From sequence record PZ000613.1: 64,000 bases of DNA; one strand, written 5' to 3'. Below, in pieces: positions 6,369 to 53,485 of this stretch (the stretch's first letter is position 1; each line of letters opens with the position of its first letter). The notes beneath the pieces were generated by a model. That model worked only from the letters and a program-made list of their open reading frames with translations. It had not been told where the DNA came from and made no database searches. The DNA is from a phage. The position numbers and the translations under genes were made by a program.

Positions 6369-7427
6369 TTACGCCGCCACCTTTCCCGCAGCAGTGAACA
6401 GAACGCCGGAAGCATACGGGTTGCGGTGACGCAGACCAACTTCCATTTCAATCATCCACTTCTCGTAAGAACCATCTTTCGCCAGTTCAGTACGTTTCGG
6501 AGCACGCAGAACCATCTGGGTCCAGTCAGCGCTACGGAAGAAGTAAACTGCATCGGTAGGCATCCAACGGTTAACGATGATTTTGTAGCTCTGGCCCAGC
6601 GGGTCAGTGATGCTGTTAACTTCGTAGATGAACTGCTTGGTGTTCTCAAAGATACGCTTACGTGAACCCTGAGTATTTTCTTGCAGACCAGCGAAGATCT
6701 TAGCATGAGCCGGGTTAATCATGATGATATCTGCTTCAGAACCAGCGGTATATAGTTGCAGAGTCATATCAAAGATATCAGCTTCGTCGAAACCAATGTT
6801 AGTGGTCGGGTTAGAAGCATTCTGTGCAACTTTAACAGTTACTGCACCAGTATCCGGGTCAGCAGGGCCATTTTTGGTCTTGTCAACAAAACCACCAGAC
6901 AGACCGCCGTGAGCACACAGGAACTGGAAAGCACCAGTCTTACGAGCTGCATGGGTGTCGTTCAGACCAACAACATCGGGATCAGTTGCAGAGTTAGTCA
7001 GGTACTGGTCAGCCAGAACGTCGGTACGAGCCTGACCGGACAGAAGGATCTTCTCGAGGTCACGCTTGATCTCTTTACCTTTCTTCTCCAGCTGATACAT
7101 CAGTTCACGACCACGACCATAGTTAGCGGTGGTGTTAGCAGTATCAGAAACACGAACAACCTTACGCAGAATCTGAGTAACGTTAGATTTGATAACAGTC
7201 GGTTTCATTTCGCCGTCTTCAGCACGAGAGCCTTCGACGTGTGCGTTATTAGCGTCAACGCTTGCCAATGCATCGGTCTGCCAGCTAAAGATAGTCTGGT
7301 TGATAGACTCTTTACCGGTCATAGATACGAACGGGGTATCCTGAGGGGACAGAACAGAAATCCAGTTAGCAAAAGAAAGTTTTTTACCATTCTGGTCATA
7401 CGATACAAATAAAGTTGGATTAGCCAT
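6369..7427 (-). CDS. major capsid protein (352 aa)
   Basis: Position between scaffold and Ig-like extension, size, strong RBS, followed by terminator; assignment by gene order and composition, not by a diagnostic motif. Confidence 0.6.
   Translation of the reverse strand: MANPTLFVSYDQNGKKLSFANWISVLSPQDTPFVSMTGKESINQTIFSWQTDALASVDANNAHVEGSRAEDGEMKPTVIKSNVTQILRKVVRVSDTANTTANYGRGRELMYQLEKKGKEIKRDLEKILLSGQARTDVLADQYLTNSATDPDVVGLNDTHAARKTGAFQFLCAHGGLSGGFVDKTKNGPADPDTGAVTVKVAQNASNPTTNIGFDEADIFDMTLQLYTAGSEADIIMINPAHAKIFAGLQENTQGSRKRIFENTKQFIYEVNSITDPLGQSYKIIVNRWMPTDAVYFFRSADWTQMVLRAPKRTELAKDGSYEKWMIEMEVGLRHRNPYASGVLFTAAGKVAA
6381..6387 (-). promoter_or_regulatory. -1 programmed ribosomal frameshift slippery heptamer G GGA AAG
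   Basis: Minus-strand GGGAAAG in X XXY YYZ register with the capsid frame, 4 codons before the capsid stop; the -1 frame continues without stop into the Ig-like ORF. Confidence 0.6.
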
Positions 7428-7467
7428 GTTATGTTAGCTCCTATACTATTAATAATTAATTTGTCGA

Positions 7468-8553
7468 TTAATCTACGAGGAATTTGAATGCGTCTTCGTG
7501 ACTAACGCGACCCTCTGCGAATGCCTTGGCAACCTTAGCGTTGTCGGGCTTATTGGAAGTACGAGACTTTGCAGCATCAGACTTCACAACCTTGCGTGGA
7601 GCACCGGGACGTTTAATCTTAGCCATCACCTGTTGCTTACCTTTATCAAATTGGTATGCTTTATGGAGAGCTAGGAAAATAGACGGACGGTTTTCCTTCA
7701 ATACTTCTTCTTCAGTAGCACCTAAGTCAATTGCGTATTGCATTAAGTTTTGATATAAGTTTTCATCCCAATTTGGAATCTCACGTTTCAGAATATTAAC
7801 ACATTCAATACTCTTGGCTTGGAAAGCTTCCTGCTCTTTAGCTGCTGCTTCCTGCTTAATACGGACCTGAGCCTGTTCAAGCTGTTGACGGCGAGCTGTG
7901 TACTTCTCTAAGAAACGTTTGTTTTCAACATATGCTTGAGGATCTTCTACTGCAAGCTTGTCCCAATCAAAACCGTTATAATCTTCAATTACTCGGTCTG
8001 CTTCTAAAGACGCTAGTTCTAATACATCCTTCAAACCTACTACACGTTCCTCAAATGCTTCCATATGACGCTGAAGAGTTGACTCTCGTTCTGTCATATC
8101 AGCACCAGTAAGATAGCCATTGGAGAGCTCTTCAATAGTCATCTCACGTCCATCAGGAAGGGTGATAACGGTTTCGTAGTCTACATCAAAGACTTCACCT
8201 TCACCGTCAGCAGAATCATCTTCATACCCTGCATCGCTTGAGTCTTCCTCTTCTACTTCAGTGTCTTCAGCACCTTCATCAGAGTCGTCCTCATCTTCTT
8301 CGACTTCGCCTTCCTCATCGTGATCTTCCCAACCATCTTCATCTTCGAACTTAAGCACATCGCTTTCACCGAGAAGGTCGGTATCAAAGTCGAAATCATC
8401 ACCGTCTTTTTCCGGGAACTCATCGTCAATGTCCACTTCTGGTTCTTGTTCAGATTCTAATCGACCGAGTTCTTCTTTGAAAGAACCTTTCAGGTCATCC
8501 AGTTGGAGGAAAGATTTAAAATCGTTCGGGTCAATATAATTATCTTGTGGCAT
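7468..8553 (-). CDS. scaffolding protein (361 aa)
   Basis: Highly acidic, Glu/Asp-rich with predicted coiled coil, located between portal and major capsid genes. Confidence 0.55.
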   Translation of the reverse strand: MPQDNYIDPNDFKSFLQLDDLKGSFKEELGRLESEQEPEVDIDDEFPEKDGDDFDFDTDLLGESDVLKFEDEDGWEDHDEEGEVEEDEDDSDEGAEDTEVEEEDSSDAGYEDDSADGEGEVFDVDYETVITLPDGREMTIEELSNGYLTGADMTERESTLQRHMEAFEERVVGLKDVLELASLEADRVIEDYNGFDWDKLAVEDPQAYVENKRFLEKYTARRQQLEQAQVRIKQEAAAKEQEAFQAKSIECVNILKREIPNWDENLYQNLMQYAIDLGATEEEVLKENRPSIFLALHKAYQFDKGKQQVMAKIKRPGAPRKVVKSDAAKSRTSNKPDNAKVAKAFAEGRVSHEDAFKFLVD

Positions 8554-11102: not shown

Positions 11103-12644
11103 TTAGTAGCTCTGATTCCATCTGCTTACGTTTGCCTCATACAGAGAAGCACTTCCGTAGCTAACGTCATGCTTAGAGCGACCACGATGTGTAACAGAGC
11201 ACGCTGAATAGCGCATTGCATCCATTAAGTCATCATGTTCTTTAATAATCTTACCAACCTTACGGTGATATCTAGCTTTCTCTTCGAATAGCTTAGCGTT
11301 AGCGGCTGTGTTAAAGACTTTAAAGCGTCCACTCATCATTCTTTCTCGGATATCTGTGATTCCGGGTTCTACAAAGAAGTTCTTTTTACCATCCATTCCA
11401 ATTTTGTTGTAGAAGGTCTCACTCTGCACATTAACTCCTGCATTCTTATAGAATTGAGCAACAGATGAGCCACTGCCTTTCTCAATATTGTCCGCATCAT
11501 GCGGTAGGATGACAGGAATCCACTGACCACGACCATTAATAGCTGGAGCATGATACACTGGAGTAAAGCCACCTTCTTTATATGAGTCGTAAACATAGAT
11601 AGTATCCGTGTTTGCATCGTAAGCTGTCCAAACAGCAGCAGTTGGGTGATCAATACCAATATCAATTGCACAGACACGTTTCCACGTATCAGGAATTTCG
11701 AATGGTTCACATTTAATTGTGTCATCCGATACATCATATATCAAACCACTTCCTAACAATGGCATACCTTTCGAACGCATCTCTAATTGCCACGCTGGAA
11801 TACCTTCAGTCATATCTTTTATATCTTGGTCAGTGATATGTCCACCTAGGTCTGCATGAGCATCCCACCAAGAGGCATTCTGGAAATATAGAGAACCTGT
11901 GTTCTCATCCCCTTCACCTTTCATAAATTTATCTACCAGTTCAGTTAAACCGTTCTCTGGTGTAGCTGTAATTGTAACTAGACCTTTAGTTGTGAGTGTA
12001 CGTGTGACGCACTGTGCGAATATAGCCATAGACTCGTATGGATCTTCTTCGTCTAACCAAATGTAGTCAACTGTTGCACCCATCAATGTGTGTTCACCCT
12101 GTTGGGTTGAACGGAATTCTAATGTACTTAAACCGTCAAACTCTCCTCTTTCATTTTGATGTTTGATTTGTACGATTTGAAGTTTGTTACCATCTCGCTC
12201 TATCGTGTCAATGACGATAGCATCACGAGGAATGACACCTGTCCCTAATAAATTTGTATCCTTTCCGATAGGTGTACCAAACAATTCCTTTTGCAATACT
12301 TTCCTTGTGGAATCCCCTGTAATACCAACTGCCCATGCTAAGATAGGTCTTTTAAATTTATATCCTGTCCACCAAGTTGGGTAGCGACCTGTGACATGAC
12401 AAGCAAACTCGTATGCCTCGCTGTAAGATTTACCAACACGGTTCGCTGCACACAAGAATCTAAAGCGATGCTTCAATCCTGCTGCATAAAATTTCTTTTG
12501 GAAGTCATACGCCTTGAAAGACAAAATCCTATTATACTTCCTCCATTGGTCACGCTCTTTCAACATATTCAATAGTGCTTTCTTTTCCTCTACACTAAGA
12601 TTGTTACCAGTTAGAGCTTCATAAATTTGTTTATCTAATGACAT
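11103..12644 (-). CDS. terminase large subunit (513 aa)
   Basis: ATPase P-loop-like segment (ANRVGKS), Walker-B-like IWLDEED, and RNase-H-like nuclease motif (AIDIGIDHPTAAVW) in the C-terminal half. Confidence 0.8.
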   Translation of the reverse strand: MSLDKQIYEALTGNNLSVEEKKALLNMLKERDQWRKYNRILSFKAYDFQKKFYAAGLKHRFRFLCAANRVGKSYSEAYEFACHVTGRYPTWWTGYKFKRPILAWAVGITGDSTRKVLQKELFGTPIGKDTNLLGTGVIPRDAIVIDTIERDGNKLQIVQIKHQNERGEFDGLSTLEFRSTQQGEHTLMGATVDYIWLDEEDPYESMAIFAQCVTRTLTTKGLVTITATPENGLTELVDKFMKGEGDENTGSLYFQNASWWDAHADLGGHITDQDIKDMTEGIPAWQLEMRSKGMPLLGSGLIYDVSDDTIKCEPFEIPDTWKRVCAIDIGIDHPTAAVWTAYDANTDTIYVYDSYKEGGFTPVYHAPAINGRGQWIPVILPHDADNIEKGSGSSVAQFYKNAGVNVQSETFYNKIGMDGKKNFFVEPGITDIRERMMSGRFKVFNTAANAKLFEEKARYHRKVGKIIKEHDDLMDAMRYSACSVTHRGRSKHDVSYGSASLYEANVSRWNQSY

Positions 12645-15212: not shown

Positions 15213-15240
15213 TTGACAGTCTTTTCCTTTATTATATAGT
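15213..15240 (+). promoter_or_regulatory. sigma70-type promoter TTGACA-16-TATAGT
   Basis: Consensus -35 hexamer, 16-nt spacer, TATAGT -10, AT-rich upstream; about 40 nt before the first plus-strand gene. Confidence 0.55.
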
Positions 15241-15278: not shown

Positions 15279-15770
15279 ATGACTAAAACGATGCAGATAG
15301 TTAATCTGGCAAGTTATGCAATCGTTGCAGCGATCGGTGTTAGTGCACTGGTAACATCTTTTTCTGATAAGGCTATCGCTGGCCCTACTCCTACAACTGA
15401 TGCGGCTAGTGTCTTTATTAGTTCCATCAATAAGGGTTGGCTGATTTGTAACGGTGCAGATAGTGACACCAATAAGATCGTTTTAAAGGTTAAATTCAGC
15501 AACGTTTCCCGTGATGGTCTGGTCGTTAGTACCAAAACACTAGATAATCAGTCTAACAGTGATCTAGTTCTCAAGCGCACCGATAATGATGCGGATATGG
15601 TTACATTTGGCACTGTACAACGTTACAACCATGCGAAAGCTGTTACAAATCTGGTTAGTTATGGTCCGGTTAATGAGTCGATGATCGCCACCACGGTTTA
15701 CAATAACGCTGATAACGCTGTTTATACTGTTCACGTTAATTTAGCCAACTGTATTAAGGCTAGTAAATAA
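15279..15770 (+). CDS. secreted/periplasmic protein with N-terminal signal peptide (163 aa)
   Basis: RBS plus hydrophobic N-terminus (IVNLASYAIVAAIGVSALVTSFS); first gene of the plus-strand block. Confidence 0.5.
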   Translation: MTKTMQIVNLASYAIVAAIGVSALVTSFSDKAIAGPTPTTDAASVFISSINKGWLICNGADSDTNKIVLKVKFSNVSRDGLVVSTKTLDNQSNSDLVLKRTDNDADMVTFGTVQRYNHAKAVTNLVSYGPVNESMIATTVYNNADNAVYTVHVNLANCIKASK

Positions 15771-16411: not shown

Positions 16412-16777
16412 ATGCGGTTCATTAGATTCGTCGTTAAAATGGTTGTGGGCTTTTTCCTTGTCGTTCTCTTATTGGGTGTTCTCCTATCGTCTATGGGTAG
16501 CGTTAAAGCTGCAACCTTTTCCCCTGATACGGTGGAAGGTTTACAGTGCACCTATTTGATAGAAAACTATTCGACCGGTAAAAAGTCACCTAAGGTTATT
16601 ATTTTGCATTTAAATGATTTTGATCAAGTGCATTCATATGATAAAACCATTCAACTGGTAAATGAAACTACCGGTAAACAAATCACGGTCAATCACTTGA
16701 TGCGCTCATCGTTGACGCTCTTTGATGAGTCCATGAATGAAATGGCATCCGGTAACGGTCAATGTGTAAATCCATAG
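16412..16777 (+). CDS. membrane/secreted protein (121 aa)
   Basis: RBS AAAGAGG; N-terminal hydrophobic segment (MVVGFFLVVLLLGVLLSS). Confidence 0.45.
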   Translation: MRFIRFVVKMVVGFFLVVLLLGVLLSSMGSVKAATFSPDTVEGLQCTYLIENYSTGKKSPKVIILHLNDFDQVHSYDKTIQLVNETTGKQITVNHLMRSSLTLFDESMNEMASGNGQCVNP

Positions 16778-17038
16778 GCTTAATCTTTATCCTGTATTGT
16801 GCCGTAGTCATGCCTATGGTCATAATCTATCTGATTCTCTAATCCTTCCTGTAAGCCTCCCAGTGAGGCTTTTCTCTTTTATAAGGTGATTGTATTCCTT
16901 ACTCCCCTTTAGCTCGTTGTGATGCGTTATAGGCCGCTTATTATTGCTTTACAGGCTGTTTCCTATGATGTATCGCGTGCGCCCGTTCCTCTATCTCTCC
17001 CTACAGTGAAAAAGTTTAAAATATTTTGCTTTACCCTA

Positions 17039-17066
17039 TTGCATAGCCATAAAACTGGCGTATACT
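17039..17066 (+). promoter_or_regulatory. sigma70-type promoter TTGCAT-16-TATACT
   Basis: Near-consensus -35 and -10 hexamers within the ORF-poor 16780-18560 region. Confidence 0.45.
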
Positions 17067-17165
17067 GATTTCTATCGGGTACGATGTAAAACATACAAGG
17101 CAAGGAAACTTGCCCCGCTCTTTAAGAGTCAGGCTAGAAAGTGAAAAATATTCTTAAAAAGAGTA

Positions 17166-17194
17166 TTGACACCAGAAAAAGCCTGATATATAGT
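17166..17194 (+). promoter_or_regulatory. strong sigma70-type promoter TTGACA-17-TATAGT with A-rich UP element
   Basis: Upstream AAAAAGAGTATTGACA closely resembles classic strong phage early promoters. Confidence 0.6.
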
Positions 17195-17310
17195 GAGCAT
17201 AGTCAGCGATGACGTGAAATATCCCGCTCTTTAATAATTTATCATCTTGCCCTTTCGCAAAGATTCACGCGAGATAAGGGAAAAGAATAAAAGAAGATGA
17301 TAAAAAAGGG

Positions 17311-17339
17311 TTGCAAACGTGGTTAAGGTAGTTCATACT
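17311..17339 (+). promoter_or_regulatory. sigma70-type promoter TTGCAA-17-CATACT with A-rich UP element
   Basis: -35/-10 hexamers at optimal spacing, A-tract upstream. Confidence 0.5.
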
Positions 17340-17612
17340 AACCACAAGTTAGCAAAACATCGCTAACTAGTTCCCAAATCAACGTATCACGGGAAAGGTA
17401 GCACATAGTGCAGTGAGTAGTTCAGGTGTAGGCGGCCTGTTAATGAATAAGTAAGCCTTTAATGTGACAGTGATTAGCAGACACTCTAAAAGGCTAACGC
17501 TCTTTAACAATATGAATCATAAGTTAAGCCTCACCGCTTAATCTTCAATCAAATAAAGCTGATTGATATATCCTCCCAATAGCGGGAACGACGAAAAAGA
17601 TTAAAAAAGCGG

Positions 17613-17641
17613 TTGACAGCTAAAACAACATGATTCATAAT
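17613..17641 (+). promoter_or_regulatory. strong sigma70-type promoter TTGACA-17-CATAAT with A-rich UP element
   Basis: Consensus -35, 17-nt spacer, CATAAT -10, upstream GAAAAAGATTAAAAAAGC. Confidence 0.6.
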
Positions 17642-18561
17642 GAGCACACTTAAGCAAATCACCGCTTAAGGAAAGCGTAACAACGGCTAACGGTTGCATA
17701 GTGTGAGAAAGCACACTGATAGATTTACCGCTCTTTAATAATTTAAACATTCTCCTATATCGGTTGAATATGTTAGATGATAATAACCATCGGATAACAT
17801 ACCAGATAAAACGGTGTAAGACTCTCTAAACTATCAGAGAAAAACAGCCTTACAATCCCTTACTGGAAACGTCACCACTGATAAACGGATTCATTGAGTG
17901 CACGCAAAGACTTAAGCTAATCGCCCACGGTTAAGGGTAGCGGCGGTCATCGCTAACAAGGCGCTACAGTGAAAGAAGTTAATCAGGGTAGGCAAGCCCG
18001 AAGAAATAACGCTCAATTGAGAGCGGCGGGGAGTGGTTAAAAAGTGGCAAATTGCTATTTAACAATGAGGTTTAGTGTGAACGTTTATGATGTGAACGGC
18101 TTGAGATTCATCTTATGATGAAAGTACATAGTCGGTTTATGTAGTAAACTTGCCGAAAGATATAAAACGTCGGAACATTAGACGGTCAATGACTCTTTCG
18201 CAATAGTATCCCGTAGTGGGCGATGACTGGCGATTGAGAGTTGATATAAAAGGATAGGCGAGAGCGAAAGCAAAGTAAACGATATTGCCGACGGTTACAA
18301 TAACGTAACTAATTAGAGTCGGACGCACTGCCTTATTGTGATGATTGATCATCGCTATCAGGTCGGCTTCGTTTATAGCGGCTAATTAAAGATACCAGAT
18401 GAAACATCACGGATAAGGGGGCGGCAAGGTTAACTCCTGATAAGACCGCCCCGCTTACCTATAACTACTTACAATGAGTGGTTATAGTTAAGTTAATAGT
18501 GACTTAAACAAGCTCATAGAGAGCGGGGCAATAGCGCCCTTACAATTGAAAGGTGAATATT

Positions 18562-19461
18562 ATGGCTAAAATCTTTAATCTGGTAAAAGAATCTGGCTTT
18601 AACGCACTGGCTAACAACATCCGTAGCAATAACGCGGCTATCAAACAAGATGTTTCTAATTTTCTGTTAGGGCACTTACAGCACTTTCGTAGCAACGGCA
18701 AGAAGTTAGATGTATTGCAATCGGCGGTAGATTTTCTGTTAACCGAACGTTTCCGCGATATGGACGTGATCGCCACTGCAATCACTTTCTTAACACCTAT
18801 CAAATATAACACCGAGGCGGCGAACGGTCGTAAAAAGTGGATTAATCTGGAAGGTGAGGCGAAAGCGAAAGAAGATGCGAAAGAAGCGCAGATCAAGGCG
18901 AAAATGGAACAAAACCGCGCTCGCTGGTCGAATGCTTTCGAGAATTTTGCTTTAGGTCGTGAAATTGAAGTGGATAACCCTAACTTCTTTAAAGGCTGCA
19001 ATGACAACGTGGCGGCCCACCTTCAAATACCGGCGAAAAACAAGGAAGATTTTAATCAGGATATTTACGCTTTAGTTGAACGCTTGAATGCAATCCGTAT
19101 CGAAGCCAAATTGCTGGCTGATGAGCGCAACGGCGCTACCAGTGATAACACTATTGCCTTAAGTGAAGAAGTGGGCAAGGTTAAAAAATCTTTCGACACA
19201 CTGATCAAGAAAGTCACGGCCTCAACGGTAGCGATCTCCGATGACTATCTGATGAACGCATCAAGCAAAGAACTGGAGTCACTTGATTCATACGCCGATG
19301 AAATGGAAAAGGCTGTTACAGCTATGCAAGAGAAGTTAGAAAGTCTGCGCGGTCGTATCTCCTCAACGGTTGCTACCCGTACCGAACAAGCGGCGAAAGC
19401 AGAAGAGGAAGAAGTATTGCGTAAAGCGGCTGAAATTATGGCGGCACGTCAGGCGGCATAA
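18562..19461 (+). CDS. hypothetical early protein, Lys/Glu/Ala-rich helical (300 aa)
   Basis: ATG with AAAGGTGA RBS; first sizable ORF after the promoter array; terminator follows. Confidence 0.55.
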   Translation: MAKIFNLVKESGFNALANNIRSNNAAIKQDVSNFLLGHLQHFRSNGKKLDVLQSAVDFLLTERFRDMDVIATAITFLTPIKYNTEAANGRKKWINLEGEAKAKEDAKEAQIKAKMEQNRARWSNAFENFALGREIEVDNPNFFKGCNDNVAAHLQIPAKNKEDFNQDIYALVERLNAIRIEAKLLADERNGATSDNTIALSEEVGKVKKSFDTLIKKVTASTVAISDDYLMNASSKELESLDSYADEMEKAVTAMQEKLESLRGRISSTVATRTEQAAKAEEEEVLRKAAEIMAARQAA

Positions 19462-19483: not shown

Positions 19484-19519
19484 AAGGCGCTATCTTAACG
19501 GGTAGCGCCTTTTCTTTTA
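19484..19519 (+). terminator. rho-independent terminator
   Basis: AGGCGCTATC-loop-GGTAGCGCCT hairpin followed by TTTTCTTTT. Confidence 0.55.
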
Positions 19520-19563
19520 TCAGTGCATTGATTTAGTGCATTAATCAAAGAATCTAATCAAAG

Positions 19564-20287: not shown

Positions 20288-20731
20288 GTGGCTAAATCTA
20301 AAATCAGCATGAAGGGCGGGCGTTGTTTTTCTATCTCTGAACTGGAGAAAGAGAAACCAAAGGCAACCAATCACGTTAGCAAGCGTAGTTTAAAACGTCG
20401 TGCTGTAAAGGCTGTGGCTGAATCTCATATTCCTTCCAGTGTGGCAAAACGTGTAGGCCATCGTGTCCATCGTGCTGATGCGTTGTTGTTAGCTGATCAT
20501 AAACGTTCTCTGTTAAAGAGCGGGGGAGCTAAAACAGAAGAAGAGAAGAAGTTAGAAATCTTCTGTAATGGTCGCACTCGAGGTAAACAGAAGTTTAAGG
20601 GGAGCACGAAAGACCCTCAGGCATTCCCTAAGACAAGCCAGTGTGCACCTGATGTTTTCTACGCAGATAGTAAACACAAGTGGGGCGTTGAGAAATACAT
20701 TGACCCCATCAAAGAGGCAAGGGTTAAGTAG
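20288..20731 (+). CDS. hypothetical basic protein (147 aa, GTG start)
   Basis: Lys/Arg-rich ORF with GTG start after AAAGGAA. Confidence 0.4.
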   Translation: MAKSKISMKGGRCFSISELEKEKPKATNHVSKRSLKRRAVKAVAESHIPSSVAKRVGHRVHRADALLLADHKRSLLKSGGAKTEEEKKLEIFCNGRTRGKQKFKGSTKDPQAFPKTSQCAPDVFYADSKHKWGVEKYIDPIKEARVK

Positions 20732-20892
20732 TAGGAATATAGCCCCCCCTCTTTTAGTACTATGACGCTCTTTCTGTAGCGTCGTGCCCTCTCCCCATTT
20801 GAAGCTTCCGCATAGCCGCCTTTGAGCGGCTTTTTGCGTTGCTGTAAGTGCATTTGCGAGTGTATTTATAGCAACGGTCATGTGTTGCTTTC

Positions 20893-20926
20893 AGGTTTGC
20901 CCCGGCTACGGCTGGGGCTTTTTTAT
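20893..20926 (+). terminator. rho-independent terminator
   Basis: GCCCCGGC-TACG-GCTGGGGC hairpin followed by TTTTTTA; a second hairpin plus T5 lies at about 20816-20840. Confidence 0.55.
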
Positions 20927-23331: not shown

Positions 23332-23336
23332 AGAGA

Positions 23337-23366
23337 GGCTGCCTTCGGGCGGCCTTTGTTGTTTTA
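23337..23366 (+). terminator. rho-independent terminator
   Basis: AGGCTGCC-TTCG-GGCGGCCT hairpin followed by TTGTTGTTTT. Confidence 0.55.
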
Positions 23367-24419: not shown

Positions 24420-24495
24420 GCGCTCTTAGCTCAATGGATAGAGCAGTAGCCTTCTAAGCTATTGGTTACAGGTTCGAGTCCTGTAGGGCGCACCA
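24420..24495 (+). tRNA. tRNA-Arg (anticodon UCU), CCA encoded
   Basis: Cloverleaf read by eye: acceptor GCGCTCT/AGGGCGC, D-arm GCTC-AATGGAT-AGAGC, anticodon stem GTAGC/GCTAT with loop CTTCTAA (UCU), T-arm ACAGG-TTCGAGT-CCTGT, discriminator A plus CCA. Confidence 0.85.
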
Positions 24496-51640: not shown

Positions 51641-53485
51641 GTGAGCAACCCGGACGCTCTTCCATTTTTGACAGAGATGACTGTCGCTGATATAATCTCT
51701 AAGCAAGCAAAGCACGGAGTGAGTTTCAACCGAAGAAATGCTCGGTGGTATGTTCACCTCCTTAAAGAGATTATTGTTAATATTGACAGAGAGTTGATTC
51801 CTCTCTTACCTAAGATGAGATTAGACGGCTCTACTTATATGAAGCCGTTTAAGAAGTCTGGAGCTTTACAGAAGTGGCCTCAAGCCTATTGTGATAGGGT
51901 TGGGCTGAAGAGAGAAGATATTGGTGGAGCTTTCACCTGTGTCGAATACGTAGACTTTGACCCATCGAAAGATGCACGAGTTAAAGAAGCTCTTATGGAT
52001 GAGGGCTTTCTTCCTCCAGAGTTTAACGTATCTAAGAAGCCTTGGAATACTTTCGAAATTAAGAAAGATATGAGAAAGTATGGAACATATCAAGCATGGT
52101 ATACTGCTTGGATGCGAGGCAATGCTAAGCAGAAGCAGACAGCCGAGATGGTTGACGCTGATATTAAGAAGTTCTTAGAAAAGCATTTCAGGTTTAAGAC
52201 TAAGAACTATATGAAGGCTTACGTATTTGGTTTAGGATTAAACCCTAATCGCCGTAACCCTGTAACGTTTGATGAGATTAAGAAAGCACTAGCCACATCA
52301 AACAAGTGGCCTACAGCTCCTACAAACCTCGAGGAGACTCTTGAAGAAGGGTTAGGGGGTGAGCTAGGGAGTGTTGGAAGTTTGCTTAAGAGACGCGTTG
52401 TAGCGGCTCACAGGCTAGGTCTTATCAGTGGACTCATAGCAAAGGAACGCGAAGATGGTAAACTTTCGGCAGAAGCTAACAGCTGCGCTACGCCAACTTT
52501 TCGATTCAAACATCGTATCGTGGTTAATATTCCCTCCCGTGGTTTGTTTGGTCACGAGTGTCGCAGTTTGTTTGAGTCTGACTATAACTCAGACAGTGAT
52601 CACTCTCGTCCTTTCGTTATTACTAACGTTGTTCCTGATGGTTGTTATATACGAAAAGGTACTAACGTAATTTATGAGAAAGGTAAGCCGGGGAAGAAAG
52701 ATAAACCTATAGGTGCTTACAAATATTACATACCCGCTGGTAAAGAAGTATTCTTAGGGTATGATGGTTCTGGACTTGAACTTCGTATGCTCGCTCACTA
52801 CCTCATTAAAGAGTGTAGAGATATGCTTGCTGAGGCAATTGAAGAGAACAATCCAGCTAAGAAAGCTCTGGCAGAACGTGGTTTAGCTTCTGCTATTATG
52901 TATCGTGATATCCTTCTTGAAGGTGATATCCACTCCCACAACCAGAAACTTGCTGGCCTTCCTACTCGTGACAACGCTAAAACGTTTATCTATGCATTCA
53001 ACTATGGTGCTGGCGACGCTAAGCTTGGCTCAATTGTAGGTGGTGGGGCTGACGAAGGTTCAGTGATGCGAGCACGTTTCTTAGCAGAGAACCCATGTAT
53101 TGCAATCCTCATTGATCGTATGACAGAGAAAGCTGCTCAGGGATACTTGATTGGTGTTGATGGTCGTAAGATTACAATGAGAAGAGATGCCACTGGTAAA
53201 GTTATGGTTCATAAAGCCCTTAACACACTTCTGCAATGTGCTGGTGCTGTTGTTATGAAATACGCTATGATGTTCCTTAACAAGTGGATTGAGAAGGATG
53301 GGGTTCGTTGTGCTAAGGTAATTGATATGCACGATGAGGGCCAATTCTCAGTGAACCGTAATGATGTACAGAAACTCAAAGAACACACTGAGCTTTGTGT
53401 TAAGAAAGCTGGTGAGTACTTGAACATGGAATGTCCTCTGGCTTCTGATTGTCAGATTGGATTAAATTGGATGCATACGCACTAA
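51641..53485 (+). CDS. family A DNA polymerase, polymerase domain only (GTG start, 614 aa)
   Basis: Motif A DGSGLELRMLAHY, motif B RDNAKTFIYAFNYGAG, motif C IDMHDEGQF; no exonuclease motifs in this ORF. Confidence 0.85.
   Translation: MSNPDALPFLTEMTVADIISKQAKHGVSFNRRNARWYVHLLKEIIVNIDRELIPLLPKMRLDGSTYMKPFKKSGALQKWPQAYCDRVGLKREDIGGAFTCVEYVDFDPSKDARVKEALMDEGFLPPEFNVSKKPWNTFEIKKDMRKYGTYQAWYTAWMRGNAKQKQTAEMVDADIKKFLEKHFRFKTKNYMKAYVFGLGLNPNRRNPVTFDEIKKALATSNKWPTAPTNLEETLEEGLGGELGSVGSLLKRRVVAAHRLGLISGLIAKEREDGKLSAEANSCATPTFRFKHRIVVNIPSRGLFGHECRSLFESDYNSDSDHSRPFVITNVVPDGCYIRKGTNVIYEKGKPGKKDKPIGAYKYYIPAGKEVFLGYDGSGLELRMLAHYLIKECRDMLAEAIEENNPAKKALAERGLASAIMYRDILLEGDIHSHNQKLAGLPTRDNAKTFIYAFNYGAGDAKLGSIVGGGADEGSVMRARFLAENPCIAILIDRMTEKAAQGYLIGVDGRKITMRRDATGKVMVHKALNTLLQCAGAVVMKYAMMFLNKWIEKDGVRCAKVIDMHDEGQFSVNRNDVQKLKEHTELCVKKAGEYLNMECPLASDCQIGLNWMHTH

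What the first reader, a model, noticed from the sequence alone, without database searches (positions are those of the whole stretch)
16780..18560. 1.7-kb ORF-poor region packed with consensus sigma70 promoters carrying UP elements
Seen in sequence: between the gene ending at 16777 and the gene starting at 18562 there is no ORF of 60 codons or more on the plus strand, yet there are at least four plus-strand promoters with near-perfect hexamers and 16-17-nt spacers (TTGCAT-16-TATACT at 17039; TTGACA-17-TATAGT at 17166; TTGCAA-17-CATACT at 17311; TTGACA-17-CATAAT at 17613). Three have A-rich UP-element-like tracts such as AAAAAGAGTATTGACA. Established knowledge: clusters of strong early promoters are used by phages to capture host RNA polymerase immediately after injection. 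Inference: the long untranslated transcripts could be small RNAs, a long leader for the 18562 gene, or promoter decoys that titrate host RNA polymerase.
Basis: partly seen in the sequence, partly recalled or inferred. Interest (0 to 1): 0.65.

Follow-up and report, generated by a model that had tools for sequence, protein, structure and literature searches.

The report
Phage rRNA-style promoters, large structured RNA
The gene-free stretch of this phiEco32-like coliphage is a conserved early cassette: strong host-type promoters, each followed by the anti-termination signal (boxA) that ribosomal RNA operons use, drive a roughly 900-base tightly folded non-coding RNA that I found described nowhere and whose role is unknown.

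Summary
The window is a Kuravirus (phiEco32-like) genome. The finding is the spacer between phi32_125 and phi32_124. The ORF-poor gap is real. Two of the four promoters match the sigma70 consensus at 11/12 (17166, 17613). The other two match at only 8/12 here, but align with stronger promoters in relatives. The promoter cluster is already published for phiEco32 and SU10.

Two things appear to be new:
- **boxA after every promoter.** Each promoter is followed 25-155 nt later by a perfect boxA, GYTCTTTAANA (17117, 17226, 17499, 17730). That is four of six matches in 64 kb, against 0.5 expected. The pattern holds in every relative examined, down to 46% identity of the downstream protein. T7 has the same signal after promoters A1-A3.
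- **A large structured RNA.** The ~835 nt from boxA4 to the gp124 start codon fold into a conserved structure. It has 226 predicted pairs, 99% paired across 19 sequences. Compensatory changes occur in 61 pairs (126 once 7 divergent relatives are added), far above controls. Pairing is strand-specific (494 G-U against 9 A-C cells). There is no conserved ORF and no Rfam match.

The cassette is promoters/boxA, then the RNA, then gp124, then a strong terminator. It is conserved as a unit.

Best reading: an rrn-like, Nus-factor-protected early unit making a long untranslated RNA. Whether that RNA acts only in cis or also in trans is open.

The parts
16853..16881 (+). Intrinsic terminator closing the first early operon (after the gp125 homologue)
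   Evidence: Stem AAGCCTCCCAGTGAGGCTT plus a T-run. The stem covaries in relatives, e.g. AAGCGCCCTTTTGAGGCGCTT. Annotated as a terminator in SU10 and SU7.
17039..17066 (+). Promoter P1, weak in this phage (TTGCAT-16-TATACT, 8/12). Inferred TSS about 17073.
   Evidence: The homologous position in phiEco32, SU10 and EK010 carries TTGACA-16-TAATAT with an A-rich upstream tract.
17099..17114 (+). Hairpin GGCAAG-GAAA-CTTGCC, two bases 5' of boxA1 (boxB-like position and loop)
   Evidence: Read from the sequence.
17117..17127 (+). boxA1, GCTCTTTAAGA
   Evidence: Perfect match to GYTCTTTAANA. Consensus from PMC5725501. Conserved in relatives.
17166..17194 (+). Promoter P2, TTGACA-17-TATAGT (11/12), with upstream AAAAATATTCTTAAAAAGAGTA. 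Inferred TSS about 17201.
   Evidence: Listed for SU10 in Table S2 as 73996-ttgacaccgaaaacagcctgatatatagt.
17226..17236 (+). boxA2, GCTCTTTAATA. With its flank, GCTCTTTAATAATTTATCA is 18/19 identical to the E. coli rrnB leader.
17311..17339 (+). Promoter P3, TTGCAA-17-CATACT (8/12), with upstream AAGATGATAAAAAAGGG. Inferred TSS about 17346.
   Evidence: Homologous sites in relatives are TTGACA-17-CATACT and TTGACA-16-TAGAAT.
17499..17509 (+). boxA3, GCTCTTTAACA (CGCTCTTTAACAA is 12/13 to the rrn boxA)
17613..17641 (+). Promoter P4, TTGACA-17-CATAAT (11/12), with upstream GATTAAAAAAGCGG. Inferred TSS about 17648. It is the promoter kept in every relative.
   Evidence: SU10 Table S2 lists 73511-ttgacagcgaaaacaacatgattcataat.
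17648..17729 (+). 5' segment of the P4 transcript: three hairpins (CTTAAGC..GCTTAAG; CAAC..GTTG; GTGTG-AGAAAG-CACAC). The last sits just 5' of boxA4.
   Evidence: Compensatory changes in 6 of 13 predicted pairs. A hairpin with a purine-rich loop lies in front of the last boxA in all relatives, with different stems.
17730..17740 (+). boxA4, GCTCTTTAATA, at the 5' edge of the structured RNA
   Evidence: The core is invariant in all 26 aligned sequences.
17727..18561 (+). Large conserved structured non-coding RNA (leader). It includes the long-range helices 17742-17755/18028-18041, 17871-17901/17961-17993, 18062-18071/18330-18339, 18082-18088/18275-18281, 18149-18154/18257-18262 and 18185-18212/18219-18245.
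   Evidence: Alignment A1 and RNAalifold give 226 pairs, 61 of them compensatory. Pair counts: 99.2% paired, against 35-48% when the partners are slid. With divergent relatives: 91.2% paired, 126 compensatory pairs. MFE z-score -5.3. Strand asymmetry. Coordinates.
18054..18064 (+). Degenerate boxA-like sequence GCTATTTAACA (C4 to A). Its 3' part forms one strand of long-range helix 18062-18071/18330-18339.
   Evidence: The helix is 100% paired in all 26 sequences, with 5 compensatory pairs (helix 18).
18418..18452 (+). Hairpin GGGGCGG...CCGCCCC whose 21-nt loop CAAGGTTAACTCCTGATAAGA is nearly invariant within Kuravirus and Suseptimavirus
   Evidence: helix 31. In the distant relatives the loop is replaced by a larger insert.
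18562..19461 (+). gp124 homologue (299 aa, function unknown), always directly downstream of the RNA
   Evidence: No Pfam family above threshold. Model pLDDT 76 with no PDB fold match.
19484..19520 (+). Strong intrinsic terminator closing the cassette (12-bp stem, then TTTTCTTTT)
   Evidence: Conserved with covarying stems even in relatives at 46-50% gp124 identity.

Best explanation
The region is an rRNA-operon-like early transcription cassette of phiEco32-type phages.

**Proposed mechanism**
1. Host sigma70 RNA polymerase starts at a tandem array of promoters. Several carry A-rich UP-like tracts.
2. Within 25-155 nt each nascent transcript exposes a consensus boxA.
3. (Inferred) boxA recruits NusB/NusE. 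With NusA, NusG and SuhB this converts the polymerase into the Rho-resistant, RNA-chaperoning complex known from rrn operons.
4. The modified polymerase can then transcribe 0.9-1.5 kb of untranslated RNA without premature Rho termination.
5. The complex may also help the long-range helices of that RNA to form.
6. Transcription runs on into gp124, and probably through its terminator into the long early operon, which has no strong promoters of its own.

The RNA is a bona fide conserved structured molecule. I take its minimal role to be a cis-acting leader of the gp124/early transcript, giving stability, processing or translational control.

**Shown here:** the promoter sequences, the boxA copies, the RNA structure with covariation, the absence of coding, and conservation of the cassette.

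**Inferred:** Nus factor binding, Rho protection, and what the RNA does.
For: **boxA**
- Four perfect GYTCTTTAANA matches lie within 620 nt on the promoter strand. The window holds six in all, against 0.51 expected. The core GCTCTTTAA occurs 4 of 5 times here.
- The consensus is taken from Baniulyte et al. 2017.
- Every relative has 3-5 promoter-boxA modules: 10 GenBank genomes and 9 distant loci whose gp124 is 46-70% identical.
- The flanks match the rrnB leader. GCTCTTTAACAATTTATCAG in L149 is identical to rrnB; window boxA2 plus its flank is 18/19.
- T7 carries CGCTCTTTAACAA 63 nt after the A3 start, ahead of gene 0.3.
- The other early promoter (15213) is followed at once by an ORF and has no boxA.

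**The leader looks like a poor Rho substrate**
- It is untranslated, C-poor at 18% C and highly structured.

**Need for processivity**
- No + strand promoter reaches 10/12 in the next 20 kb, but several strong terminator-like hairpins are there.
- SU10 Table S2 lists no other early promoters.

**Role of the Nus complex**
- It gives Rho resistance and aids RNA folding (abstract of PMC6614801; PMC5725501).
Against: - No transcription, Nus-binding or Rho data for this phage were available. The primary phiEco32 papers were not held.
- One boxA after the last promoter would be enough, so the copy after every promoter is unexplained.
- No rrn boxC (TGTGTGGG) was seen when reading the region; no pattern search was run.
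- From my own knowledge, rrn-type complexes read through intrinsic terminators poorly. Yet a strong, conserved intrinsic terminator follows gp124. The unit may therefore largely end there.
- P1 and P3 are weak in this particular phage.
- A plain 'leader' role does not explain why ~900 nt of intricate structure, of nearly fixed length (832-842 nt in close relatives, 901-936 nt in distant ones), is maintained.
Confidence: 0.6

Rival explanations
1. The ~0.9 kb RNA is mainly a trans-acting non-coding RNA: a new class of large structured phage RNA. It would be made rRNA-style in large amounts early in infection, perhaps released by processing, perhaps working as an RNP with gp124. Possible roles are host takeover, anti-defence or assembly. 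The promoter/boxA array would then exist to produce the RNA, not to express downstream genes.
For: - Structural conservation is of the order seen in functional RNAs: 61 to 126 compensatory pairs, many long-range helices, invariant loops and a fixed length.
- The cassette RNA + gp124 + strong terminator is conserved as a unit down to 46% protein identity.
- UP-like promoters plus boxA are the arrangement cells use for stable RNAs (for rrnB).
- No Rfam family matches.
- Gordonclarkvirinae are reported as unusually resistant to restriction-modification systems, with no known mechanism (PMC11990801). That is compatible with an unknown early factor, but it is not evidence for one.
Against: - No terminator or recognisable processing site separates the RNA from gp124.
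- The RNA abuts the gp124 Shine-Dalgarno sequence.
- No trans target or partner is identified.
- The gp124 fold search was uninformative.
Confidence: 0.3
2. A decoy or titration device. The promoter array soaks up host sigma70 polymerase, and the many boxA RNAs titrate NusB, NusE and SuhB away from rrn operons, helping to shut the host off.
For: - Several strong promoters with several boxA copies per transcript, more than antitermination needs.
- From my own knowledge, transcribed boxA can compete for NusB (Friedman et al. 1990).
Against: - It does not explain the conserved 835-nt structure downstream, nor its linkage to gp124.
- The copy number of an infecting genome is low at the time early promoters fire.
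- The phage already encodes gp79, which shuts off sigma70 transcription (PMC12276001).
Confidence: 0.07
3. A DNA-level element (replication origin, packaging or terminal-repeat-associated site, or protein-binding array) rather than an RNA.
For: - The region lies about 2.5-4 kb from the physical right end of the genome.
- It is non-coding and repeat-bearing.
- Transcription-activated origins exist in other phages (my own knowledge).
Against: - Pairing is strand-specific. There are 494 G-U cells against 9 A-C cells, so 99.2% are paired as + strand RNA but 87.9% on the opposite strand.
- The + strand folds 40 kcal/mol better than the - strand.
- Covariation preserves RNA helices, not sequence motifs.
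Confidence: 0.03
4. Unannotated small protein genes account for the transcripts.
For: Some GenBank records small ORFs in the spacer. SU7 and PAS59 annotate a 66-aa ORF upstream of their promoter array.
Against: - No ORF of 35 aa or more is shared across the 19 aligned sequences, and two phages have none.
- Substitutions follow base-pairing, not codon periodicity.
- Most annotators leave the region empty.
Confidence: 0.02

Closest known systems
E. coli rrn operon leader (tandem P1/P2 promoters with UP element, boxB-boxA-boxC, rrn antitermination complex)
   Same: - Tandem strong sigma70 promoters with A-rich upstream tracts.
- A hairpin, then a consensus boxA, within about 25-155 nt of the start.
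- boxA plus flank nearly identical to rrnB (GCTCTTTAACAATTTATCAG).
- The product is a long, untranslated, highly structured RNA with long-range helices.
   Different: - No sequence homology to rRNA or to any E. coli DNA.
- No boxC seen.
- One boxA per promoter, 3-5 copies in all.
- The RNA is ~0.9 kb and is followed by a protein gene.
- No GC-rich discriminator is evident at the promoters.
Phage T7 early region (promoters A1, A2, A3, boxA, leader of gene 0.3)
   Same: - A lytic podophage without early RNAP of its own.
- A cluster of strong host promoters near the genome end.
- A perfect boxA CGCTCTTTAACAA downstream, before the first gene.
   Different: - T7 has one boxA after all three promoters.
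- Its leader is only ~175 nt from the A3 start to gene 0.3.
- It has no large conserved structured RNA.
Lambdoid nut sites / N-dependent antitermination
   Same: boxA plus hairpin RNA signals placed just after early promoters, so that long early operons are read through terminators.
   Different: - The order here is hairpin then boxA; in lambda it is boxA then boxB.
- boxA here is full consensus, where lambda has CGCTCTTA (my own knowledge).
- No N-like arginine-rich protein is evident among the products of the first early operon.
boxA-dependent protection of other untranslated RNAs (CRISPR arrays, suhB leader)
   Same: A consensus boxA near the 5' end of an unusually long untranslated RNA that would otherwise be a Rho target (PMC7665894, PMC5725501).
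   Different: Phage-borne, in multiple copies, and upstream of one structured RNA rather than a repeat array.
Large structured non-coding RNAs found in phages and bacteria (GOLLD, ROOL, HEARO, OLE)
   Same: Several hundred nucleotides, many covarying helices, function unknown, some members phage-encoded (my own knowledge).
   Different: - No match to any Rfam model at gathering or permissive thresholds.
- Different host range (coliphages).
- Fixed position as the 5' leader of a conserved gene, with the rrn-style expression signals.

Membership tests
boxA / Nus-factor (rrn-type) antitermination signal | RNA sequence matching the gamma-proteobacterial boxA consensus GYUCUUUAANA | tested here: met
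   Four perfect matches at 17117, 17226, 17499 and 17730 (+). The window holds six, against 0.51 expected. Consensus from PMC5725501.
boxA / Nus-factor (rrn-type) antitermination signal | Lies in the transcript, on the sense strand, shortly downstream of a promoter | tested here: met
   Each boxA sits 25-155 nt after a predicted start on the same strand. The arrangement is conserved in all relatives. The promoters are listed for SU10 and phiEco32. The starts themselves were not verified here.
boxA / Nus-factor (rrn-type) antitermination signal | Bound by NusB/NusE, and confers Rho resistance | not testable with these tools
   Needs ChIP, gel shift, or in vitro transcription with Rho.
rrn leader architecture | boxB-type hairpin 5' of boxA | tested here: met
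   GGCAAG-GAAA-CTTGCC precedes boxA1. GTGTG-AGAAAG-CACAC precedes boxA4, and it covaries across relatives. boxA2 and boxA3 have other hairpins nearby.
rrn leader architecture | boxC (UGUGUGGG) 3' of boxA | tested here: not met
   No such motif follows any of the four copies (sequence).
Lambda-type nut site | boxA followed by a boxB hairpin, together with an N-family protein | tested here: not met
   The order is reversed. No small arginine-rich protein is present among the ORFs of the first early operon.
sigma70 promoter with UP element | -35 and -10 hexamers at 16-18 nt spacing, plus an A/T-rich tract at about -40 to -60 | tested here: met
   P2 and P4 score 11/12, with AAAAAG/AAAAAAG tracts ending 2-4 nt before the -35. 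P1 and P3 score only 8/12 in this phage. Binding of the alpha subunit C-terminal domain (alpha-CTD) is not testable here.
Any curated RNA family (Rfam 15, including 6S, pRNA, GOLLD, ROOL, tmRNA) | Covariance-model score at or above the gathering threshold | tested here: not met
   The only hit in the window is tRNA-Arg at 24420. A permissive scan of 16700-18700 gives only sub-threshold noise; the best is 21.8 bits against a 57.5-bit cutoff.
Conserved structured RNA (generic criterion) | Compensatory base changes above phylogeny-preserving controls; strand specificity; no coding signal | tested here: met
   - 19 sequences: 61 compensatory pairs, against 25.7 +/- 2.9 shuffled and 5-8 slid.
- 26 sequences: 126, against 70 +/- 5 shuffled and 47-67 slid.
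- 494 G-U against 9 A-C cells.
- No conserved ORF.

The most novel reading that the evidence does not exclude
The ~0.9 kb RNA is a previously unrecognised class of large structured phage RNA with a function of its own. It would act in trans, or as an RNP with gp124, for example in host takeover, counter-defence or genome handling. The phage has copied the host's rRNA expression logic (UP-type promoters plus boxA/Nus chaperoning) in order to make and fold it.
Probability: 0.3. Interest if true: 0.85.

Novelty: new variant of a known kind. Interest (0 to 1): 0.74.

Why it matters
- **Rarity.** Large (over 500 nt) conserved structured RNAs outside rRNA, RNase P and tmRNA are rare, and most have no known function. 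This one sits in a coliphage group that is easy to grow. BASEL isolates Bas86-93 infect E. coli K-12 with restored O-antigen, so its role is directly testable by genetics.
- **Scope of rrn-type antitermination.** The result would extend host boxA/Nus-factor antitermination from rRNA, CRISPR arrays and lambdoid or T7 leaders to a whole subfamily of lytic phages.
- **An open question for these phages.** It offers a concrete answer to how early transcription of phiEco32-type phages travels tens of kilobases from a single promoter cluster. The 7-11 paper states that an antitermination strategy 'remains to be defined' for the related phage.
- **Annotation.** About 100 GenBank records leave this 1.8-2.3 kb blank or fill it with spurious ORFs.

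Tried and rejected
- **Rfam and tRNA scans.** Rfam at gathering and permissive thresholds, plus ARAGORN, found no family for the region. Weak Ysr197 hits merely overlap the boxA copies.
- **Host homology.** No similarity to any complete E. coli genome.
- **'Anti-boxA' inverted repeat** (17110-17128 against 18513-18531). Rejected: the 3' arm forms local covarying hairpins instead.
- **Closing helix boxA4:Shine-Dalgarno** (17729-17738/18546-18555). Predicted, but it shows no covariation within A1 and only one compensating pair in the 26-sequence set. It is generic pyrimidine/purine complementarity, so it is left as unproven.
- **Phage sigma (gp36) promoter motif TAATGTATA.** At chance level, with none functional-looking in the region.
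- **Scan of IMG/VR for tandem boxA cores.** The number of hits (at least 120, row-capped) is about what I estimate chance would give. The only array was a 7 x 109-bp repeat in Corynebacterium phage P1201, judged unrelated.
- **Salmonella phage 7-11.** No boxA and no nhmmer match to the RNA at its right end.
- **Loop-motif searches.** IMG/VR and metagenome scans gave useful extra sequences, plus four chance matches and one chimeric contig.
- **gp124.** No Pfam family above threshold, a PHROG of unknown function, and an AlphaFold model (pLDDT 76) with no PDB fold match.
- **Methods and sources not available.** MAFFT Q-INS-i is not installed. The Savalia 2008 and Pavlova 2012 papers were not held. 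No held paper links boxA or a non-coding RNA with phiEco32 or Kuravirus.
Full report
**Identity of the window**

The 2 kb around the finding matches 97 phage records at 80-94% identity. All are Escherichia or Shigella phages of the phiEco32 type (Kuravirus and relatives, subfamily Gordonclarkvirinae). In phiEco32 itself the region is the unannotated gap between phi32_125 and phi32_124. That is EU330206 72787-74730, on the strand of the early genes, about 3 kb from the right genome end. Most annotators leave it empty; a few fill it with small ORFs.

**Check of the observation**

The gap is real. The upstream ORF ends at 16777 and the gp124 homologue starts at ATG 18562. The longest + strand ORF in between is 49 aa.

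| Site | Sequence | Match |
|---|---|---|
| 17039 | TTGCAT-16-TATACT | 8/12 |
| 17166 | TTGACA-17-TATAGT | 11/12 |
| 17311 | TTGCAA-17-CATACT | 8/12 |
| 17613 | TTGACA-17-CATAAT | 11/12 |

- A generic scan at 9/12 or better finds no excess over shuffles (12 against 13.9 +/- 3.6).
- Sites at 11/12 or better are expected 0.023 times in this stretch; two are seen.
- The whole 64 kb has only four such sites, all on the + strand.
- The weak sites align with stronger promoters in relatives.
- Three sites have A-rich tracts that end 2-4 nt before the -35. From my own knowledge, these resemble the proximal UP subsite AAAAAARNR.

**What was already known**

[quoted passage not shown] Its Table S2 lists the homologues of P2, P3 and P4, and no other early promoters. 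So the promoter cluster itself is not new.

The primary phiEco32 papers (Savalia 2008, Pavlova 2012) were not held. I therefore cannot exclude that they say more about this region.

**New point 1: a boxA after every promoter**

The repeat search turned up a 12-13 nt direct repeat, CGCTCTTTAA(C/T)AAT.
- It is a perfect match to the published gamma-proteobacterial boxA consensus GYTCTTTAANA (Baniulyte et al. 2017).
- The copies lie at 17117, 17226, 17499 and 17730, all on the + strand. That is four of six matches in the window, against 0.51 expected.
- Each lies 25-155 nt downstream of one of the four promoters.
- Read directly from MG1655, the rrnB leader is ...GCGGCAC TGCTCTTTAACAATTTATCAGAC.... 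Window boxA2 with its flank (GCTCTTTAATAATTTATCA) is 18/19 identical to it. Some relatives are identical over 19-20 nt.
- Hairpins with GAAA-rich loops sit just 5' of boxA1 and boxA4, which is the boxB position in rrn. The one before boxA4 covaries. No boxC was seen.
- All ten GenBank relatives examined have 4-5 promoter-boxA modules.
- T7 has the same signal, CGCTCTTTAACAA, 63 nt after the A3 start and upstream of gene 0.3.
- The only other early promoter in the window (15213) is followed at once by a translated ORF, and it has no boxA. That fits the idea that boxA is there to protect untranslated RNA.
- No held paper links boxA with these phages.

**New point 2: a large conserved RNA structure**

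The 3' half of the spacer is well conserved even in the most distant GenBank relatives. By eye the alignment showed hairpins with compensating changes. I collected 19 distinct sequences: the window, 11 isolates, and metagenome contigs found through an invariant loop motif.

- From boxA4 to the gp124 ATG the length is 832-842 nt in all of them, at 76-97% identity.
- RNAalifold predicts 226 pairs, and 61 show compensatory double changes.
- Independent counting gives 99.2% of cells paired, against 94.5 +/- 0.2 when partners are shuffled and 35-48% when they are slid.
- The 61 compensatory pairs compare with 25.7 +/- 2.9 shuffled (0 of 500 shuffles reach 61) and 5-8 slid.
- Many helices are long-range. 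One example is 18062-18071 with 18330-18339, which uses a degenerate fifth boxA-like sequence. Others are 17742-17755 with 18028-18041 and 18149-18154 with 18257-18262.
- The signal is strand-specific. There are 494 G-U against 9 A-C cells, so 99.2% are paired as + strand RNA against 87.9% as - strand.
- The + strand MFE is -277.8 kcal/mol (z = -5.3) against -237.7 for the - strand.
- No ORF of 35 aa or more is shared, and two phages have none.
- Rfam has no matching family. E. coli genomes hold nothing similar.

**Extension to distant relatives**

gp124 has homologues at 46-70% identity on unannotated public assembly (Logan) contigs. All nine loci fetched show the same layout:
- a gene-free gap of 1.4-3.4 kb upstream of the gene;
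- three consensus boxA copies, most of them with a TTGACA promoter and an A-rich tract in front;
- a 901-936 nt leader from the last boxA to the ATG.

A sequence profile of the RNA finds these leaders (E = 6e-94 to 1e-17). When they are added by plain sequence alignment (51-61% identity to the window), the projected structure still pairs 91.2% of cells. Now 126 of 226 pairs show compensatory changes, against 70 +/- 5 shuffled and 47-67 slid. Helix 18062-18071/18330-18339 stays 100% paired. Some peripheral elements differ: the invariant Kuravirus loop at 18425-18445 is replaced by a larger insert. The core is therefore old and the decorations vary.

**The cassette**

A covarying intrinsic terminator precedes the array (16853-16871). 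Another strong one follows gp124 directly (19484-19511), and it is conserved with covarying stems in all relatives. The conserved unit is:

terminator | promoter-boxA modules | ~0.9 kb structured RNA | gp124 | terminator

Downstream, no + strand promoter reaches 10/12 for 20 kb, while further terminator-like hairpins occur.

gp124 remains uncharacterised. It has no Pfam family above threshold and belongs to a PHROG of unknown function. Its model is mostly helical (pLDDT 76) and has no PDB fold match.

**How it most likely works**

*Shown:* strong host-type promoters, consensus boxA copies on their transcripts, and an untranslated, C-poor (18% C), highly structured, conserved RNA.

*From established knowledge:* boxA RNA binds NusB/NusE. 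With NusA, NusG and SuhB it forms a complex on RNA polymerase that resists Rho and promotes RNA folding (PMC6614801 abstract; PMC5725501). Rho terminates long untranslated RNAs unless such a signal is present, as shown for CRISPR arrays (PMC7665894).

*Inference:* the phage uses the host rrn antitermination and chaperone system to make and fold this RNA, to reach gp124, and probably to drive the long early operon. The RNA's own role is unknown. I rate a cis leader role as the conservative reading and a trans-acting or RNP role as the main rival.

*Unexplained:*
- why every promoter has its own boxA;
- how the strong terminator after gp124 is handled;
- why about 900 nt of structure at nearly fixed length is kept.

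**Verdict**

Its interpretation is partly right: early promoters and a long leader are supported, small RNAs are not, and the decoy idea is untested. The interesting content lies in what it did not see: rrn-type boxA signals throughout, and a new, strongly supported, roughly 0.9 kb structured RNA conserved across a phage subfamily and beyond.

Noticed in passing
window 51668-51696 (+): A perfect 12/12 sigma70 consensus (TTGACA-17-TATAAT). It is the only one in the window and lies far from the early promoter cluster. No boxA follows it.
   Followed up: no
window 15213-15240 (+): First early promoter (TTGACA-16-TATAGT, 11/12), about 0.67 kb from the inferred genome end. An ORF follows at 15279 and there is no boxA, unlike the promoters feeding the untranslated leader.
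   Followed up: partly
window about 14550: By projection from phiEco32 (promoter 667 nt from the right terminus), the physical genome end or terminal repeat junction lies here. The window therefore comes from a permuted or concatemeric assembly and spans the divergent late and early clusters.
   Followed up: no
window 24420-24495 (+): tRNA-Arg (anticodon TCT). It is the only Rfam or ARAGORN hit in the window.
   Followed up: no
window 16412-16777 (+): The gp125 homologue (121 aa, N-terminal hydrophobic segment) is labelled 'terminase' in PHROG 13168 and in several GenBank records. This looks like propagated mis-annotation for a small early membrane or secreted protein.
   Followed up: no
window 19484-19511, 20814-20831, 20899-20918, 23334-23357 (+): A series of strong intrinsic-terminator-like hairpins inside the co-directional early gene cluster, which lacks strong internal promoters. 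This implies regulated readthrough.
   Followed up: partly
window 20511-20521 (-) and 11237-11247 (+): Two isolated boxA-consensus matches, both apparently antisense to the local genes. Probably chance.
   Followed up: no
L042 about 2140-2900 (Corynebacterium phage P1201, DQ499600 about 6950-7720): Seven perfect 109-bp tandem repeats, each containing GGGAGCTCTTTAAAAATC. The boxA-like core is probably coincidental in an actinobacterial phage, but the array itself is striking and sits in a gene-poor stretch.
   Followed up: partly
L144 8865-9917 (Salmonella phage 7-11, NC_015938 88864-89916): About 1.05 kb of ORF-free sequence at the right end, upstream of gp151, where the validated early promoters of 7-11 lie. 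It has no boxA and no similarity to the Kuravirus RNA. Whether it is a structured RNA of its own was not tested.
   Followed up: partly
L020 (CYGL01003862.1): This metagenome contig joins the 3' part of the RNA to inverted upstream phage sequence. It is most likely a chimeric or fold-back assembly and was excluded.
   Followed up: yes
L146, L147, L149, L151, L153 (Logan contigs of 15-96 kb): Relatives with gp124 at 46-70% identity. Two of the contigs reach 87-96 kb, longer than the 67-79 kb Kuravirus genomes. The large terminase gene lies divergently about 3-5 kb upstream of the cassette. These look like undescribed genera carrying the same RNA.
   Followed up: partly
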